Made by a program: the position numbers and the translations under genes. The notes under the pieces were generated by a model. The model searched no databases. It saw nothing but the letters and a program-made list of their open reading frames with translations, and was not told the DNA's origin. Of a stretch of 20,300 bases of DNA, positions 6,066 through 20,300 are shown in pieces. Location of the stretch: the IMG/VR virus record IMGVR_UViG_2634166457_000006, positions 1-20,300 of that record; one strand, written 5' to 3'. Positions within the stretch are counted from its first letter, which is position 1. Each line of letters opens with the position of its first letter. Source of the DNA: a virus (Duplodnaviria; Heunggongvirae; Uroviricota; Caudoviricetes).

Positions 6066-6551
6066 ATGGCTGAGATTGTTGAAGGAGTGCATTACCTTAC
6101 GGTTGATGATCTTGTTGAAATCAATCGTTCCCTAATTGAATTACAGACGCCAGATGAGCCCGTTGGTGTTCTGAGTCCAGATAACTTAAGTTCTTCTCAG
6201 GCCCGTCCCAGCATGGTTCGATGGTATGAACAGACTAATGACATGTTTGTACTGGCATCGGTATTGATTGAAAGTCTGATTCAGAATCATCCGTTTGCTA
6301 ATGCGAACAAACGAACAGCTATGATGGCTGGTTACGTCTTCTTGTTGTTGAATGGCTATGAGTTAACAGCACCAGGCGATGAAATCGTGGAAATGGCAGA
6401 GGGACTGGCCTGCAAAACCTATACTCGAGAAGATCTCGAGAACTGGTTGTGTTATTGGTCTCGCGCGTATGACAGCCGGGAATTATGTAAAACAGGCGCA
6501 ACTATTGTTTTGTATGAAACTATCAAGCTTAAAATAGAACAGCAAAACTAA
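6066..6551 (+). CDS. Doc (death-on-curing) family toxin, Fic/Doc fold
   Basis: HPFANANKRTA motif matches the Doc signature (P1 Doc HIFNDANKRTA) with similar flanking regions. ATG 6066 chosen; the ORF-track start 6057 is TTG. Confidence 0.75.
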   Translation: MAEIVEGVHYLTVDDLVEINRSLIELQTPDEPVGVLSPDNLSSSQARPSMVRWYEQTNDMFVLASVLIESLIQNHPFANANKRTAMMAGYVFLLLNGYELTAPGDEIVEMAEGLACKTYTREDLENWLCYWSRAYDSRELCKTGATIVLYETIKLKIEQQN

Positions 6552-9786: not shown

Positions 9787-9862
9787 GGCCCTTTAGCTCA
9801 GTGGTGAGAGCGAGCGACTCATAATCGCCAGGTCGCTGGTTCAAATCCAGCAAGGGCCACCA
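9787..9862 (+). tRNA. tRNA with CAT anticodon (Met or lysidine-type Ile2)
   Basis: Manual cloverleaf: acceptor GGCCCTT/AAGGGCC, anticodon loop CTCATAA, T-loop TTCAAAT, encoded CCA. Confidence 0.85.
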
Positions 9863-9867
9863 CCTTA

Positions 9868-9944
9868 CCGCCATTAGCTCATCAGGACAGAGCGCCAGCC
9901 TTCGAAGCTGGCTGCGCGGGGTTCGGGTCCCCGGTGGCGGTCCA
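9868..9944 (+). tRNA. tRNA-Arg (anticodon TCG)
   Basis: Manual cloverleaf: acceptor CCGCCAT/GTGGCGG, anticodon stem CCAGC/GCTGG, loop CTTCGAA, T-loop TTCGGGT, encoded CCA. Confidence 0.75.
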
Positions 9945-9957
9945 TAACCGACACCCT

Positions 9958-10034
9958 GCGTTGTCAGCTCAGCCGGACAGAGCAATTGCCTTCTGAGCAA
10001 TCGGTCACTGGTTCGAATCCAGTACGACGCGCCA
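9958..10034 (+). tRNA. tRNA-Arg (anticodon TCT, reads AGA/AGG)
   Basis: Manual cloverleaf: acceptor GCGTTGT/ACGACGC, anticodon stem ATTGC/GCAAT, loop CTTCTGA, T-loop TTCGAAT, encoded CCA. Confidence 0.85.
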
Positions 10035-11104: not shown

Positions 11105-11989
11105 ATGTCGATTAAACATTACGATGTTGTCAGGGCCGCATCGCCGTCAGACCTTGCGGAAAAGCTGACACAAAAACTGAAAGAAGGCTGGCAGCCGTTT
11201 GGTGGCCCGGTGGCCATAACCCCTTATACCCTGATGCAGGCGGTGACGGCAGAAGGTGATGTGGAGGATGACGTCAGTGGCCCGTCCGGCGGTGAGGGGG
11301 CAGGCTCTGGTGGAGCGGATACCTGTGACACCGCAACCGAAACCGTGCTGTTTTACCGGGCGGCTGATGGCTGGCCTGCAGACCTTGGCTGGACACGGAC
11401 GAACGGAGCCGCAGAGTTCACTGACGACACCGGAGCAGAAAGCGGGAAGGCCCTGCGCATAAGCAAGGATTCAGATGCGGGTGTTTCATGGACGTTAACG
11501 AAAGAGATGCCATCACCGGCTGACCTCCTGACCCGTGGTGGTGTGGTCAGCTGCCGCTTTAAACTGGAAGGCGACCTTGTGGCGAACCAGTACGCGTTTG
11601 CCCTGTACCTTCGTGTCCCGGCAGCCTCATTGCCTGAGGGTGTGACGCTGGCAGAAAGTGGTGGCGCGAACAGCAATCCCTGCCTGCTGGCGTTCTTCAT
11701 ACGGACCGATGCGACCAGAACCAATTTGTATTTCCGCAAACAGAATGACGTCAGTGTCGGGACATATGGTGCCTTTGACAATGAATGGCACACGCTGGAG
11801 CTTCAGTTTGCCGGAAACAGCAGTATTGATGTGACGCCGGTACTTGACGGTACGGCCGGAATGCCGTTCACGCTGACGAAGTCGGCAGTGAATGTTCCGG
11901 AGAATACGTTCACTGTGACAGACACTGCGTCAGCTGCAACTTACAGCACACTGTTTGAGTACGTGACGGTGGAGGTGAATGCAGCGTGA
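11105..11989 (+). CDS. DUF1737-like N-terminal domain protein with a C-terminal beta-rich domain, 294 aa
   Basis: N-terminus MSIKHYDVVRAASPSDLAEKLTQKLKEGWQPFGGP fits the DUF1737 pattern seen in prophage late-region proteins; Gly/acidic linker; C-terminal 200 aa unassigned. GGGAGAAA SD. Confidence 0.55.
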   Translation: MSIKHYDVVRAASPSDLAEKLTQKLKEGWQPFGGPVAITPYTLMQAVTAEGDVEDDVSGPSGGEGAGSGGADTCDTATETVLFYRAADGWPADLGWTRTNGAAEFTDDTGAESGKALRISKDSDAGVSWTLTKEMPSPADLLTRGGVVSCRFKLEGDLVANQYAFALYLRVPAASLPEGVTLAESGGANSNPCLLAFFIRTDATRTNLYFRKQNDVSVGTYGAFDNEWHTLELQFAGNSSIDVTPVLDGTAGMPFTLTKSAVNVPENTFTVTDTASAATYSTLFEYVTVEVNAA

Positions 11990-14453: not shown

Positions 14454-14768
14454 ATGCTACATGATCACCTGGCAGAATGTCTGGAGAAAAAAGGATTGTA
14501 CCGGAGAGCAGCTGAACGATGGGCAAAAGTGATGGTACAGCTAAGTGATGACCAGAAAAGGAAAGTAGCGGCACAGAAACGAGCAGAGTGTTTGCGTAAG
14601 GCGCGCCGGACTCCGGTTTCACCGGTGAACCTGACAGAAATAAAACAAGCGGTCAACAGACTACATTCTGAGTTGGGAATGGGATTTGAAGAGCGGCGGG
14701 TATTCCGACGATATAAAGGGACAGGAGAACAGAATACGTCCGGAAACGCGCGGTCAAAAAAATGCTAA
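14454..14768 (+). CDS. PerC-family transcriptional regulator-like protein (Pch-like), 104 aa
   Basis: N-terminal LEKKGLYRRAAERWAKVM resembles the PerC/Pch signature as recalled; strong GGAGGT SD; preceded by about 470 bp of AT-rich non-coding DNA. Confidence 0.5.
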   Translation: MLHDHLAECLEKKGLYRRAAERWAKVMVQLSDDQKRKVAAQKRAECLRKARRTPVSPVNLTEIKQAVNRLHSELGMGFEERRVFRRYKGTGEQNTSGNARSKKC

Positions 14769-14849: not shown

Positions 14850-15074
14850 TTAAGTAAACCTGTCTGAACAGGTGCTCTGGTCGTGTTTGTCTTTGTTGGG
14901 TACAAATTGAGAATGTTTTTCATTCATTAGTCTTCTTCTGCAGGCTTCAATAACCCACGCTGAAAAATTTCCTGAACCTTTCTGGTCAAGAGCGATGTTA
15001 ATTTGTTCAATCATCTGGTTTGGAAATCGGATGTTGCGGGTTGTTGTTCTGCAGGCCCGGTTTTTCGATGACAT
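14850..15074 (-). CDS. Ribbon-helix-helix-like DNA-binding protein, 74 aa
   Basis: NIRFPNQMIEQINIALDQKGSGNFSAWVIEACRRRL has a strand-helix-loop-helix pattern; good minus-strand SD (AAGGAA, 7 nt). Confidence 0.5.
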   Translation of the reverse strand: MSSKNRACRTTTRNIRFPNQMIEQINIALDQKGSGNFSAWVIEACRRRLMNEKHSQFVPNKDKHDQSTCSDRFT

Positions 15075-15115
15075 TTTATTTCCTTTAATAATGTGCCATA
15101 TGACGGGGATTTTAC

Positions 15116-15481
15116 ATGGCTGAGCTTCGTACTCTTCAGGGCAGAATCAAAACACTGAATACCCGACGGGTGAATATCCTGAAGGGTGAACAGCGTCGTG
15201 TCAGTGGCAGTGCCCGGGTTTCCCTCAAACGTCGTATCTGGCTGAGGGATGCCGGACACTGTTGTCTCTGTGGACGCGTGGTTGACCTTTGTGACAGTGA
15301 ACTCGATCACCGCATTGCACTTCAGTTCGGTGGTGGTAATGAGGAGACGAATCTCTGGACGCTCTGTACCGAATGCCATCGCCAGAAGTCAGCCAGTGAA
15401 GTGGCGAGTGGTATGCCGGACCCGACGTTGCCGGAGGTGTCCGCAGGTAGTGTCAGGGCGGACGACATCACCGGACTGTAA
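15116..15481 (+). CDS. HNH endonuclease (terminase-associated type)
   Basis: CCLCGR...DHRIALQFGG...NLWTLCTECHRQK HNH/zinc motif, located just upstream of a cos-like region and terminase. Confidence 0.75.
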   Translation: MAELRTLQGRIKTLNTRRVNILKGEQRRVSGSARVSLKRRIWLRDAGHCCLCGRVVDLCDSELDHRIALQFGGGNEETNLWTLCTECHRQKSASEVASGMPDPTLPEVSAGSVRADDITGL

Positions 15482-15571
15482 CCCGACCCGGGGGGGTATC
15501 ATCCGGCGTGAAAAATGATCGCACCGGACACCGCCCCCCGTCTCACGCAGAGAAAAAATTCCCGTTTCAGG

Positions 15572-15696
15572 CCAGTTAACATGTTAACTGGCTGTCCGGG
15601 CATTTTTGTTATTTTTATCTTTATTATTCAGTTTGTTGCGTGGGAAAAATGTTAACCGGCTTTTTCAGCAAATGTTAACCAGGCAGCAGTTAACAT
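15572..15696. repeat. cos-proximal repeat cluster: 20-bp perfect palindrome CCAGTTAACATGTTAACTGG plus further ATGTTAAC(C) copies in both orientations
   Basis: Palindrome at 15572-15591; additional copies at about 15649-15657, 15672-15680 and inverted at 15689-15696; lies between the HNH and terminase small-subunit genes. Confidence 0.4.
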
Positions 15697-15771
15697 TCGG
15701 GGGCATGAAAGGCGGGATAAAACGGCCTGAAGCATGTCCGGCTGAGTGAGTTCTGAACCCGGGAGGAGACT

Positions 15772-16334
15772 GTGCTGACGACGCAAAAACGAAAATTTGC
15801 GCTGGCGCTCATGTCCGGGAAAAACAAAACGGCGTCAGCCATTGCTGCCGGTTATTCGGCGAAGACAGCCAGGGTTAAAGGCTCGCAGCTGGCAAAAGAT
15901 CCGGAAGTGCTCGCGTTTATAGCACGCAAAGAAGGCGAGACGGTGGAGGTGGATGAGGTTCCCGTTTACCGGCAGAAAAAACAGAGCAGGAGAATAAACC
16001 CCGTCGCTGTGAGACGGCTGCAATTCCACAGCCGGACGAAACCAATCCGGAGATGTCACCGCCCATGGTGATGTCTCCTGGTATTGAATATATGGAGGAT
16101 GGTCTTCCCGATCCTGTGAAAGCCATGGGGCGGATCCTGGTGGAAAACCTGAGCATTGACCCTAAACTGGCACTGGATGCAGCCTGGCGTCTGGCGCAGT
16201 TCACGCACCATAAAAAAGGGGATGCCGGTAAAAAATCGGCAAAAGGTGATGCCGCGAAAAAAGCGACTAACCGTTTTGCGGTGCCACCACCACCCCGCCT
16301 GGTGGTGAATAACGATAATGAGGACAGTGGATGA
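15772..16334 (+). CDS. Terminase small subunit, apparently split over two reading frames (15772-16071 and 16053-16334)
   Basis: N-terminal part has the TerS HTH signature (SAIAAGYSAKTARVKGSQL). The second frame is open from 15957 and ends with ATGA coupling to terminase large at 16331. The frames switch near an A6 run at 15976-15981. Confidence 0.5.
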
Positions 16335-17992
16335 TACCTGTGTGGAGTACGGCCTGCCCGGACTGGGCAGCGCGCCTGAAAAAGGGACTGTCGATTATTC
16401 CGGCTCCGATTTATCCGGACCAGGCCGCACATGCCCTGGCGATTTTTAAACAACTGCGGATTGTTGATGCACCGGGCAGCCCGACGTTCGGGGAGTCCTG
16501 TGCACCGTGGGTGTTTGACCTGGTGGCGGCCCTGTTTGGCTCCTACGATGCGCACACCGGTATCCGTCATATAAAGGAAGTGTTCATTCTGATCCCGAAA
16601 AAAAACAGCAAGTCCACACTGGCTGCCGGGATCATGATGACGGCGCTGTTACTGAACTGGCGGCAGGCGGCGGGCTACACCATTCTGGCCCCGACTGTGG
16701 AGGTGGCGGCTAACGCCTTCAACCCTGCCAGGGATATGGTACGACGGGACGATGATCTGGATGACCTCTGTCAGGTGCAGACACATATCCGGACCATCAC
16801 CCACCGGGTGACGGACACCACCCTGAAGGTGGTGGCAGCCGATCCGAATACGGTGTCCGGTATCAAGTCCGTGGGGACACTGATTGATGAACTGTGGTTG
16901 TTTGGCAAGCAGTATAAAGCGGAGGACATGTTACGTGAAGCCATCGGCGGGCTTGCCTCCCGTCCGGAAGGATTTGTGGTGTACACAACCACCCAGTCGA
17001 ATGAGCCGCCAGCCGGAGTGTTCAGACAGAAACTTCAGTACGCCCGGGATGTCCGTGACGGCAAAATTCATGATCCGCACTTTCTGCCGGTGATTTTTGA
17101 GCATCCGCCGGAGATGGTGGAGAGCGGTGAGCACCTGCTGATGGAAAACCTCGCCATGGTTAACCCGAATCTCGGTTATTCGGTGGATGAGGCCTTTCTG
17201 TACCGGGAGTACCGTAAAGCCCGCGAAGCCGGGGAAGAGACCTTCCGGGGGTTCATGTCAAAACACGCCAATGTGGAAATCGGTCTTGCCCTGCGTTCTG
17301 ACCGCTGGGCGGGGGCGGATTTCTGGGAACAACAGGGCATGTGCGTCAGCCTGGACGATATCCTGCTGCGCGCTGATGTGGTTACGGTGGGGATTGACGG
17401 CGGAGGGCTGGATGATCTGCTGGGGATGTACGTGATTGGGCGTGACCGGGAGACCCGCGAATGGCTGGGGTGGGGCCATGCCTGGGCACATGAAACCGCG
17501 GTGGTCAGACGGAAGAGCGAGGCGTCCCGGTTTCAGGATCTTGTTGCCTGTGGAGATATGACCATTGTCCGGCGTGTCGGGGATGACACGGCGGAAGTGG
17601 CGGAATATGTGCGTCGCATTCATGAGGCTGAGTTACTGGACCATATCGGTATTGATCCGTCAGGTGTGGGGCAAATTCTGGATTCACTGGCGGAAGCCGG
17701 GATCCCCGACGGAATTGTGGTGGGGATAAGCCAGGGCTGGAAACTGGGCGGGGCCATCAAAACCACCGAGCGCAAACTGGCTGAAGGGGTGCTGGTGCAT
17801 GGTGGCCAGCCCCTGATGGCCTGGTGTGTCGGCAATGCCCGGGTGGAGCCTAAAGGTAACGCCATTCTTATTACCAAACAGGCCAGCGGACGGGGAAAAA
17901 TTGACCCGCTGATGGCGCTCTTCAATGCGGTCTCCCTGATGTCCCTGAATCCGGAACCGAAAAAGAAAGCGTATGAGGTTTTTTTCATATAA
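16331..17992 (+). CDS. Terminase large subunit (HK97/Terminase_1-like)
   Basis: 553 aa, placed after TerS with ATGA overlap; N-terminal ATPase-like and C-terminal nuclease-like regions. Confidence 0.8.
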   Translation: MIPVWSTACPDWAARLKKGLSIIPAPIYPDQAAHALAIFKQLRIVDAPGSPTFGESCAPWVFDLVAALFGSYDAHTGIRHIKEVFILIPKKNSKSTLAAGIMMTALLLNWRQAAGYTILAPTVEVAANAFNPARDMVRRDDDLDDLCQVQTHIRTITHRVTDTTLKVVAADPNTVSGIKSVGTLIDELWLFGKQYKAEDMLREAIGGLASRPEGFVVYTTTQSNEPPAGVFRQKLQYARDVRDGKIHDPHFLPVIFEHPPEMVESGEHLLMENLAMVNPNLGYSVDEAFLYREYRKAREAGEETFRGFMSKHANVEIGLALRSDRWAGADFWEQQGMCVSLDDILLRADVVTVGIDGGGLDDLLGMYVIGRDRETREWLGWGHAWAHETAVVRRKSEASRFQDLVACGDMTIVRRVGDDTAEVAEYVRRIHEAELLDHIGIDPSGVGQILDSLAEAGIPDGIVVGISQGWKLGGAIKTTERKLAEGVLVHGGQPLMAWCVGNARVEPKGNAILITKQASGRGKIDPLMALFNAVSLMSLNPEPKKKAYEVFFI

Positions 17993-19993: not shown

Positions 19994-20037
19994 GTCTGAT
20001 GAGGAGGGCGGGAGGTGAGAGCTTCCCGCAGTAACTG

Positions 20038-20253
20038 ATGGCAAAAATCCGATATCTGCAGGGTACACATGATGCCCGGCCCGGGGATATCCGGGATGTC
20101 GCACAGCCGTGTGCGGAGGTGCTGGTTCGCCTGAGGAAGGCGGAGTACATCACAGCGCGACGTCCGGCGGGTCAGAAAAAGAACATGATGCGGAGCATAG
20201 CGAATGTGGAACCTTTTGCGACGAACCCGAAAAAACCAGAAATCAGGACGTGA
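20038..20253 (+). CDS. Hypothetical head-module protein, 71 aa
   Basis: ORF immediately downstream of the capsid gene; weak SD; no family recognised. Confidence 0.3.
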   Translation: MAKIRYLQGTHDARPGDIRDVAQPCAEVLVRLRKAEYITARRPAGQKKNMMRSIANVEPFATNPKKPEIRT

Positions 20254-20300
20254 TGTAAAAGAGGCGGGCTGGACCAGCCTGTTTCAGGCGGTGGCTGAGC

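What the first reader, a model, noticed from the sequence alone, without database searches (positions are those of the whole stretch)
15772..16334. Terminase small subunit split across two frames at an A6 run
The TerS N-terminal HTH domain is in one frame (15772-16071), while a second frame, open from 15957, encodes a plausible C-terminal continuation that ends with ATGA coupling to terminase large. The first frame's tail (RQKKQSRRINPVAVRRLQ...) looks like out-of-frame translation of acidic coding sequence. The switch falls near AAAAAA at 15976-15981. This could be an assembly error, an inactivating frameshift in a decaying prophage, or programmed slippage.
Basis: partly seen in the sequence, partly recalled or inferred. 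Interest (0 to 1): 0.5.

Follow-up and report, generated by a model that had tools for sequence, protein, structure and literature searches.

The report
One-base frameshift breaking phage terminase gene
A prophage's small terminase gene is split into two reading frames because one A is missing from a run of seven; this is an ordinary sequencing error or recent slip mutation, not a programmed frameshift.

Summary
ORF1 (15772-16071) carries the TerS helix-turn-helix domain. The -1 frame, open from 15957 to 16334, carries the rest of TerS and ends in an ATGA overlap with TerL. The switch is exactly at the A6 run, 15976-15981.

The window comes from the E. coli M114 draft scaffold KQ241476.1. Two independent assemblies carry the same prophage at 99.85-99.9% identity. 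Both have A7 at this site and one intact 187-aa TerS, which equals ORF1 residues 1-70 + Thr + the -1-frame continuation. Single-frame TerS homologues extend to about 40% identity across Enterobacterales, so the two-frame layout is private to M114.

Programmed slippage is not supported:
- The motif G_AAA_AAA is only half slippery.
- There is no downstream structure (z = -0.79).
- There is no well-spaced Shine-Dalgarno-like element.
- The layout is not conserved.

"Decaying prophage" is not supported either, because every other comparable gene in 24.8 kb is intact.

This assembly has proven one-base indel errors. The 304 bp on either side of a 32-N gap at the window's end are the same sequence twice, and the two copies disagree at two indels.

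My estimates are assembly artefact about 0.55, genuine recent A7→A6 slippage mutation about 0.40, and functional recoding or a split TerS below 0.05. Interest is low.

The parts
15772..15981 (+). TerS codons 1-70 in the original frame. This covers the helix-turn-helix DNA-binding domain and the start of the linker. The start codon is GTG, with GGAGGAG upstream.
   Evidence: Pfam Terminase_2 on residues 2-58. phrog_641 positions 2-76. Identical to residues 1-70 of the intact TerS P0160. In the AF2 model, residues 1-56 have pLDDT about 95.
15976..15981 (+). The lesion site: an A6 run. It is A7 in the two near-identical prophages and A6+T in the common E. coli allele. One base is missing here.
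   Evidence: Alignments.
15982..16071 (+). Out-of-frame tail of ORF1: 29 nonsense codons followed by TGA at 16069-16071.
   Evidence: Translations. The tail has no counterpart in intact homologues (alignment).
15981..16334 (+). TerS codons 71-187 in the -1 frame: ACA (Thr71) through to TGA. This is the rest of the linker plus the conserved C-terminal helical region. The frame itself is open from 15957.
   Evidence: phrog_641 positions 57-162, E = 2.7e-33. Identical to residues 71-187 of P0160. In the AF2 model the helices at residues 115-166 have pLDDT about 90.
16069..16073 (+). A UGAUG overlap. The ORF1 stop shares its A with an ATG in the C-terminal frame, which is residue 101 of intact TerS. 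Further in-frame ATGs lie at 16053 and 16065. This is a possible but unproven re-initiation point.
   Evidence: Read from the sequence. The public gene call starts at 16065.
16331..17992 (+). Terminase large subunit, intact at 553 aa. Its ATG overlaps the TerS stop (ATGA).
   Evidence: Pfam TerL_ATPase and TerL_nuclease. 98% identical over the full length to reference TerL.
15116..15481 (+). HNH endonuclease, intact at 121 aa. It is the usual partner of this HK97-like terminase module.
   Evidence: Pfam HNH. Full-length match. The identical protein occurs in the relative L148.
19997..20300 (+). A contig end that is repeated after the 32-N scaffold gap just beyond the window. The copy in the window lacks an A at 20182 (AAAAAGAA-C). 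The copy after the gap has an extra C. This proves that the assembly contains one-base indel errors.
   Evidence: 304/306 identical, with 2 indels. Both relatives agree with the 'good' version at each site.

Best explanation
The split is a non-programmed loss of one A from an A7 run (A7 to A6, 15976-15981) in an otherwise normal single-frame TerS gene. The gene belongs to an HK97-like lambdoid prophage of E. coli M114. I think the loss is most likely an error of this draft assembly rather than a property of the strain's DNA. On that reading the real gene encodes the intact 187-aa TerS (…VYRQKK-T-EQENKPRR…) found in the same prophage elsewhere, and nothing unusual happens biologically.

Shown:
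- the position and nature of the lesion
- the intact state in the closest relatives
- the existence of other one-base indel errors in this assembly

Inferred: that this particular indel is one of those errors.
For: 1. Two independent assemblies carry the same prophage with A7 and an intact TerS. GCA_011907385.1 is 99.9% identical over 6.4 kb, with 4 substitutions. GCA_902842135.1 is 99.85% identical over 4.6 kb, with 5 substitutions. The intact protein, P0160/EES6428799.1, is exactly the window's two frames joined at the run.
2. The 99-aa product with the tail QKKQSRR… is found on one contig only, M114 itself.
3. The scaffold holds the same 304 bp twice around a 32-N gap. The two copies differ by two single-base indels, and each wrong version is contradicted by both relatives. 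So two of the three M114-specific indels against L151 are proven artefacts.
4. All the other indels against the relatives are one-base changes. The internal ones sit in runs of 7 or more: G8/G7 at 15490 and T7/T8 at ext 24270.
5. Every other comparable gene is full length: replication, DUF968, RusA, antiterminator, lysis, PerC, HNH, TerL, protease-capsid, connector and tail genes. That does not fit a decaying element.
Against: - The TerS site is 4.3 kb from the contig end, whereas the proven errors are at contig ends.
- Other long runs, such as the A8 at 16598 in TerL, agree with the relatives, so homopolymer miscalling is not pervasive.
- A7 runs are also natural slippage hotspots, and a prophage packaging gene is not under selection in a lysogen. 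With about 12 substitutions in 12.5 kb, one or two real indels would not be surprising.
- The sequencing platform and the reads could not be examined. A Logan unitig from SRR024316 is identical to window 14972-15905 but stops before the run.
Confidence: 0.55

Rival explanations
1. The lesion is a genuine, recent replication-slippage mutation (A7 to A6) in the M114 prophage. TerS is truncated after the HTH domain: 70 native residues plus 29 nonsense residues. The DNA-recognition domain is then no longer joined to the C-terminal region, which presumably oligomerises and binds TerL. The prophage could still lyse the cell but could not package its own cos DNA efficiently. This would be the first step of domestication or decay.
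For: - The lesion lies in a homopolymer of 7, the classic slippage substrate.
- Similar one-base contractions at the same run (A6T to A5T, tail QKNQSRR…) appear in other E. coli assemblies.
- The other long runs in M114 are correct.
- The Logan unitig of the probable read set reproduces the neighbouring G7 variant.
- Prophage late genes are free of selection in a lysogen (established knowledge).
Against: - It is private to one draft assembly that has proven indel errors nearby.
- No other lesion is present in about 25 kb of the prophage.
- The other frameshifted examples come from assemblies in which the whole prophage is shredded into small ORFs. They are probably error-rich assemblies or heavily decayed elements and give weak support.
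Confidence: 0.4
2. The split is a programmed or habitually compensated recoding event. Either a -1 ribosomal slip on G_AAA_AAA or an RNA-polymerase insertion of an extra A in the A6 run would restore full-length TerS (…QKK-T-EQ…) at a useful rate.
For: - A -1 shift on the two Lys codons gives exactly the intact protein sequence.
- Both frames are open together for 38 codons (15957-16071).
- Lys-tRNA on AAA is shift-prone. Single-base deletions in E. coli can be suppressed at an aggregate 1-10% (PMC10861913). Low-level compensation of a homopolymer indel is known for HSV thymidine kinase (PMC5009743).
Against: - The two-frame layout is not conserved. 227 homologue clusters, down to about 40% identity, are single ORFs, and the same prophage elsewhere is in frame. 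The inducible Stx phages BP-4795, 2851, 1717 and YYZ-2008 are annotated with a single TerS gene.
- The motif is not a full X_XXY_YYZ heptamer, because the P-site codon would have to re-pair AAA to GAA.
- There is no downstream structure: -23.4 kcal/mol against -21.2 ± 2.9 for shuffles, z = -0.79.
- The nearest SD-like GAGG ends 16 nt upstream, outside the 10-14 nt window (sequence, own knowledge).
- A_AAA tetramers and heptamers without stimulators give about 0.1-0.5% frameshifting in E. coli (PMC4066793).
- A run of six A's is short for transcriptional slippage, which is documented for runs of about 9 (PMC5009743).
Confidence: 0.03
3. TerS is made as two pieces. ORF1 supplies the HTH domain. 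Ribosomes that terminate at UGA 16069-16071 re-initiate at the overlapping AUG (16071, or at 16053 or 16065) and make the C-terminal 87-93 residues. The two pieces would together, or the C-piece alone, support packaging.
For: - A UGAUG overlap is present.
- The garbled stretch, residues 71-99, lies entirely inside a linker that AF2 models at pLDDT below 50 (residues 61-102).
- That linker is hypervariable in length among homologues: a 138-aa natural deletion variant, a 202-aa insertion variant, and 150-170-aa distant homologues.
- So both folded parts are encoded intact.
Against: - No homologue shows two genes here.
- The UGAUG is created by the frameshift by accident.
- The GGAG at 16049-16052 abuts the ATG at 16053 and is too close to act as a ribosome-binding site.
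- The known TerS mechanism needs the DNA-binding domains tethered to the oligomeric core (established knowledge of SF6/SPP1-type TerS). Only the HTH part matches solved structures.
- There is no experimental support.
Confidence: 0.02

Closest known systems
Terminase small subunit of the HK97-like head module of E. coli lambdoid and Stx prophages (phrog_641; Pfam Terminase_2 N-domain). Examples: YYZ-2008 gp50 (YP_002274186), WP_021569242.1, EES6428799.1.
   Same: - The window's two frames joined at the run give a protein identical to EES6428799.1 and about 90% identical to the common allele.
- The gene order is the same: HNH, then an intergenic region presumed to carry cos (not tested), TerS, TerL (ATGA overlap), protease-capsid fusion.
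   Different: The window has A6 where the intact genes have A7 or A6T. The gene is therefore broken into a 99-aa ORF and a C-terminal ORF in the -1 frame.
Homopolymer indel errors in draft assemblies, and frameshifted pseudogenes of cryptic prophages that PGAP flags as 'frameshifted'.
   Same: - A single-base change in the length of a mononucleotide run.
- It is private to one assembly.
- It is accompanied by other proven one-base errors.
   Different: Nothing distinguishes it from this class. Only the reads could tell error from mutation.
dnaX and IS911/IS3-type programmed -1 frameshifting (A_AAA_AAG plus stimulators).
   Same: A run of A's decoded by Lys-tRNA sits at the frame junction, and the downstream frame is -1.
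   Different: - There is no full heptamer.
- There is no stem-loop or pseudoknot.
- There is no correctly spaced SD-like element.
- There is no conservation (PMC4066793).
The 'savior' indel with low-level compensatory frameshifting, as in the HSV thymidine kinase G7 run (PMC5009743).
   Same: A one-base indel in a run of seven could be partly rescued by rare slippage on the same run.
   Different: No selective benefit and no evidence of rescue are known here. This is only an analogy for the most novel reading.

Membership tests
Phage terminase small subunit (phrog_641 / Pfam PF03592 Terminase_2) | N-terminal helix-turn-helix domain that matches the family profile above the curated cut-off. | tested here: met
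   ORF1 scores 37.6 bits against a cut-off of 26.1. phrog_641 E = 2.5e-31. PDB TerS DNA-binding domains 4zc3, 3zqp and 2cmp are weakly matched by the family profile.
Phage terminase small subunit (phrog_641 / Pfam PF03592 Terminase_2) | The C-terminal part of the family profile is present. | tested here: met
   The -1 frame matches phrog_641 positions 57-162, E = 2.7e-33.
Phage terminase small subunit (phrog_641 / Pfam PF03592 Terminase_2) | Located immediately upstream of TerL and translationally coupled to it. | tested here: met
   ATGA overlap at 16331-16334, followed by an intact 553-aa TerL.
Phage terminase small subunit (phrog_641 / Pfam PF03592 Terminase_2) | One uninterrupted reading frame. 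| tested here: not met
   The frame breaks at 15976-15982. Intact relatives are 187 aa in one frame.
Programmed -1 ribosomal frameshift site | An X_XXY_YYZ slippery heptamer in the zero frame. | tested here: not met
   The zero-frame context is G_AAA_AAA_C. The A-site codon can re-pair (AAA to AAA), but the P-site codon would go from AAA to GAA (sequence).
Programmed -1 ribosomal frameshift site | A downstream stimulatory RNA structure, or an upstream SD-like element 10-14 nt away. | tested here: not met
   Folding 15982-16071 gives z = -0.79 against shuffles. The nearest GAGG ends 16 nt upstream, and a GGAGG lies 25 nt upstream.
Programmed -1 ribosomal frameshift site | The two-frame arrangement is conserved among homologues. 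| tested here: not met
   Single-ORF homologues reach about 40% identity. 1245 complete E. coli genomes carry the region, and all listed hits are annotated as one TerS gene. The same prophage elsewhere is in frame.
Programmed -1 ribosomal frameshift site | A measured frameshift product. | not testable with these tools
   This needs a reporter assay or mass spectrometry.
Assembly or sequencing indel artefact | The indel lies in a homopolymer and is absent from near-identical independent assemblies. | tested here: met
   A7 in GCA_011907385.1 and GCA_902842135.1, A6 in M114 only.
Assembly or sequencing indel artefact | Independent proof that the same assembly contains such errors. | tested here: met
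   The duplicated 304 bp around the 32-N gap disagree at two one-base indels, and the relatives adjudicate both.
Assembly or sequencing indel artefact | The reads contradict the consensus at this site. | not testable with these tools
   No read access. The Logan unitig of SRR024316 ends at 15905, before the run.
Decaying (cryptic) prophage | Several disrupted or deleted essential genes, or IS insertions. | tested here: not met
   In 24.8 kb only TerS and the contig-end small ORF are disrupted. All other comparable genes are full length.

The most novel reading that the evidence does not exclude
The A6 allele is real, and the prophage stays partly functional. Every frame-restoring event within the 38-codon two-frame overlap (15957-16071) falls inside a disordered, length-variable linker. 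Rare -1 slips there, or UGAUG-coupled expression of the C-terminal part, would then yield working TerS. The A7/A6 run would act as a leaky, reversible on/off switch for packaging.
Probability: 0.04. Interest if true: 0.35.

Novelty: already known. Interest (0 to 1): 0.07.

Why it matters
It matters little beyond annotation hygiene. The two ORFs (KNA40569.1 'hypothetical protein' and KNA40570.1 'PBSX phage terminase small subunit') should be read as one TerS gene carrying a one-base homopolymer lesion.

If the lesion is genuine, this prophage is probably packaging-defective while the rest of it is intact. That would bear on whether it can be induced or can transduce.

The case also illustrates a check that can be run without reads. 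Unmerged duplicated contig ends, together with near-identical relatives, can expose one-base indel errors in a draft assembly.

Tried and rejected
- **Exact-pattern scan of species-representative genomes** for the deleted allele (28-mer): no hit.
- **Megablast of a 59-mer with the window's allele** against 5,426 complete E. coli genomes: no hit. This is uninformative because flanking SNPs prevent any 28-nt seed.
- **The same search with the A5T variant:** it mostly recovered intact genes through gapped alignments, and only one record matched at ≥99%.
- **IMG/VR scans:** the A6-deleted pattern gave 5 loci and the A7 pattern gave 4. None of them aligns to TerS, so they are chance matches.
- **An assembly chimera of two co-resident TerS alleles.** I considered this because similarity to the common allele and to the ERR12356761 allele switches exactly at the run. 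I rejected it because both near-identical relatives carry the same mosaic in frame.
- **The 'T deletion next to an unchanged A6' reading** from the first alignments. It was superseded once the A7 relatives were found.
- **Literature search** for strain M114 or its assembly accession: nothing.
I reached it through the listing of cluster members instead.
- **'None' annotations under TerS in several Stx phage records:** uninformative, because those records annotate only two features.

Full report
**What is in the sequence**

ORF1 runs from GTG 15772, with GGAGGAG just upstream, to TGA 16069-16071, and is 99 aa. Its first ~58 residues match Pfam Terminase_2 above the curated cut-off. Residues 1-73 match positions 2-76 of phrog_641, 'terminase small subunit' (E = 2.5e-31).

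The -1 frame is open from 15957 to TGA 16332-16334. It matches the rest of the same profile, positions 57-162 (E = 2.7e-33). Its stop overlaps the ATG of an intact 553-aa TerL in an ATGA. The A6 run lies at 15976-15981.

**Provenance**

The 99-aa product is on record on a single public contig, scaffold KQ241476.1 of E. coli M114 (GCA_001186315.2). There the two pieces are annotated as a hypothetical protein and a 'PBSX phage terminase small subunit'.

The neighbourhood is a lambdoid prophage with an HK97-like head module, in this order: HNH endonuclease, intergenic region, TerS, TerL, protease-capsid fusion, portal, connector and tail genes. The same module occurs in 1245 of 5426 complete E. 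coli genomes and in Stx phages such as YYZ-2008, BP-4795, 2851 and 1717. In every listed hit with gene annotation TerS is a single gene of about 187 aa.

**Locating the junction**

Against the common allele the window lacks one base directly after the run: reference CAGAAAAAATCAGAG, window CAGAAAAAA-CAGAG. The better comparators are two independent assemblies that carry essentially the same prophage.

| Assembly | Identity to the window | Substitutions |
|---|---|---|
| GCA_011907385.1 (contig AARDOY010000066.1) | 99.9% over 6.4 kb | 4 |
| GCA_902842135.1 (contig CADGMO010000031.1) | 99.85% over 4.6 kb | 5 |

Both read CAGAAAAAAACAGAG, an A7 run. Both encode one 187-aa TerS (EES6428799.1), which is exactly ORF1 residues 1-70 + Thr + the window's -1-frame continuation. 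The lesion is therefore a contraction of a homopolymer, A7 to A6.

The A7/Thr allele is rare and the A6T/Ser allele dominates. The TerS allele is a natural mosaic whose similarity switches at the run. The relatives share that mosaic in frame, so it is not an assembly chimera.

**Is it programmed?**

No. Four tests failed.
- Single-frame homologues extend to about 40% identity in Klebsiella, Serratia, Pantoea, Salmonella and others. The identical prophage elsewhere is in frame.
- The zero-frame context G_AAA_AAA is not a full X_XXY_YYZ heptamer.
- The 90 nt downstream fold no better than shuffled sequence (z = -0.79).
- The nearest SD-like GAGG ends 16 nt upstream.

Published measurements in E. 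coli put motif-only frameshifting at roughly 0.1-0.5%, against a background of 0.04-0.15% (PMC4066793). Six A's are short for transcriptional slippage, which is documented for runs of about nine (PMC5009743).

Other 99-aa products in the same 90% cluster arise from a different event at the same run, A6T to A5T, with the tail QKNQSRR…. They come from assemblies in which the whole prophage is fragmented into many small ORFs. They point to error-rich assemblies or heavy decay, not to conservation.

**Is it a decaying prophage?**

This is not supported. tblastn of reference proteins against the window plus the next 4.5 kb shows full-length, single-frame matches for these genes: DnaT-like, P, DUF968, RusA, antiterminator, lysozyme, lysis, PerC, YlcI, HNH, TerL, protease-capsid, connector, head closure, gp10 and gp17. 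Only TerS and a 73-codon ORF at the contig end are disrupted.

**Error or mutation?**

The scaffold has a 32-N gap immediately after the window, at ext 20301-20332. The 304 bp before the gap and the 304 bp after it are the same sequence twice. The two copies differ at two one-base indels. The window copy lacks an A at 20182. The copy after the gap has an extra C. Both relatives agree with the 'good' version at each site.

So this assembly demonstrably contains one-base indel errors. Of the three M114-specific indels against GCA_902842135.1, two are proven artefacts and the third is the TerS lesion. The remaining indels against GCA_011907385.1 are also ±1 changes in runs of 7 or more: G7/G8 at 15490 and T8/T7 at ext 24270.

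Four points argue against an artefact.
- The TerS site is 4.3 kb from the contig end.
- Other long runs, including an A8 in TerL, are concordant.
- An A7 run is a natural slippage hotspot in a gene that is not under selection in a lysogen.
- With about 12 substitutions in 12.5 kb, one or two genuine indels are not unexpected.

A Logan unitig from SRR024316 is 100% identical to window 14972-15905, including M114-specific variants. It is probably from the strain's own reads, but it stops before the run.

My estimates are artefact about 0.55, genuine recent mutation about 0.40, and functional recoding or a split TerS about 0.05 combined.

**Consequences if genuine**

The AlphaFold model of the closest full-length database homologue, built from 76 sequences, has three parts:
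- a confident HTH domain, residues 1-56, pLDDT about 95
- a low-confidence linker, residues 61-102, pLDDT below 50
- C-terminal helices, residues 115-166, pLDDT about 90 for residues 111-140 and lower beyond

The linker is also hypervariable in length among homologues.

The frameshifted stretch, residues 71-99, lies wholly within the linker. By accident the ORF1 stop overlaps an ATG in the C-terminal frame (UGAUG, 16069-16073; residue 101). Both folded parts are thus encoded intact but unlinked.

By inference from how TerS proteins work, separating the DNA-binding domain from the C-terminal region should abolish specific packaging, apart from leak. Nonprogrammed suppression of one-base deletions can reach 1-10% in aggregate in E. 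coli (PMC10861913), so some full-length TerS is conceivable. This is the only mildly novel reading, and I give it about 4%.

**Verdict**

This is an ordinary one-base homopolymer lesion in a well-known gene family. It is most likely a draft-assembly artefact and otherwise a very recent inactivating slip. It is not a recoding signal. Interest is low.

Noticed in passing
window 19997-20300, and L003 14562-14865 (just beyond the window's end): The scaffold has a 32-N gap directly after the window. The 304 bp on each side are the same sequence twice, from unmerged contig ends. The two copies differ by two one-base indels, and each copy is wrong at one site according to two near-identical relatives.
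   Followed up: yes
window 20039-20254: A small conserved ORF lies upstream of the portal gene; it is 73 aa in the references. In the window it is frameshifted by the missing A at 20182 (AAAAAGAA-C). This is a contig-end assembly error, because the copy after the gap and both relatives have AAA.
   Followed up: yes
window 15490-15496: A poly-G tract lies in the HNH-TerS intergenic region, which probably contains cos. It is G7 here and in the SRR024316 Logan unitig, G8 in GCA_011907385.1 and E. coli PS1Thumoskin9, and G9 in O55:H7 CB9615. It is a length-variable homopolymer whose real length in this strain is unknown.
   Followed up: partly
L003 14771-17031 (downstream of the window); L011 20266-22850; L004 21156-23740: PGAP annotates the portal gene of this phage group as 'frameshifted' (2585 nt) in two unrelated complete genomes. 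In fact a ~460-aa portal ORF ends and an overlapping ORF in another frame follows. That second ORF has 3.3 tandem copies of a 162-bp (54-aa) repeat in PS1Thumoskin9 and no tandem array in M114 (454 aa + 299 aa). This could be two normal genes or a conserved recoding site. I did not resolve it.
   Followed up: partly
window 15772-15981: PHROGs holds a separate 69-position family of unknown function (phrog_17390) that matches only the TerS N-terminal domain (E = 3.6e-31). This suggests that truncated or split TerS N-fragments ending near this same run are present in phage and prophage protein collections.
   Followed up: no
window 15772-16334: TerS alleles are mosaic. The 5' HTH-coding part resembles the common E. 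coli allele and the 3' part resembles a rare allele (ERR12356761, P0041). The switch falls at the A run, at the start of the linker. The linker varies greatly in length among natural variants (138 to 202 aa).
   Followed up: partly
window 9787-10034: Three phage-borne tRNA genes lie downstream of the antiterminator gene: tRNA-Met(CAT, possibly Ile2), tRNA-Arg(TCG) and tRNA-Arg(TCT). This is typical of Stx-type lambdoid prophages.
   Followed up: no
window 11105-11989: The gene at the position of the 616-618-aa SASA-family esterase of related prophages is only 294 aa here (DUF1737 + DUF6645). It shares the first ~53 residues and a diverged C-terminal part. It looks like a shorter in-frame variant rather than a frameshift.
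   Followed up: no
window 6066-6551 and 14454-14768: The prophage carries accessory ('moron'-like) genes: a Fic-domain protein and a PerC-family regulator homologue that is 99% identical to the one in O55:H7 CB9615.
   Followed up: no
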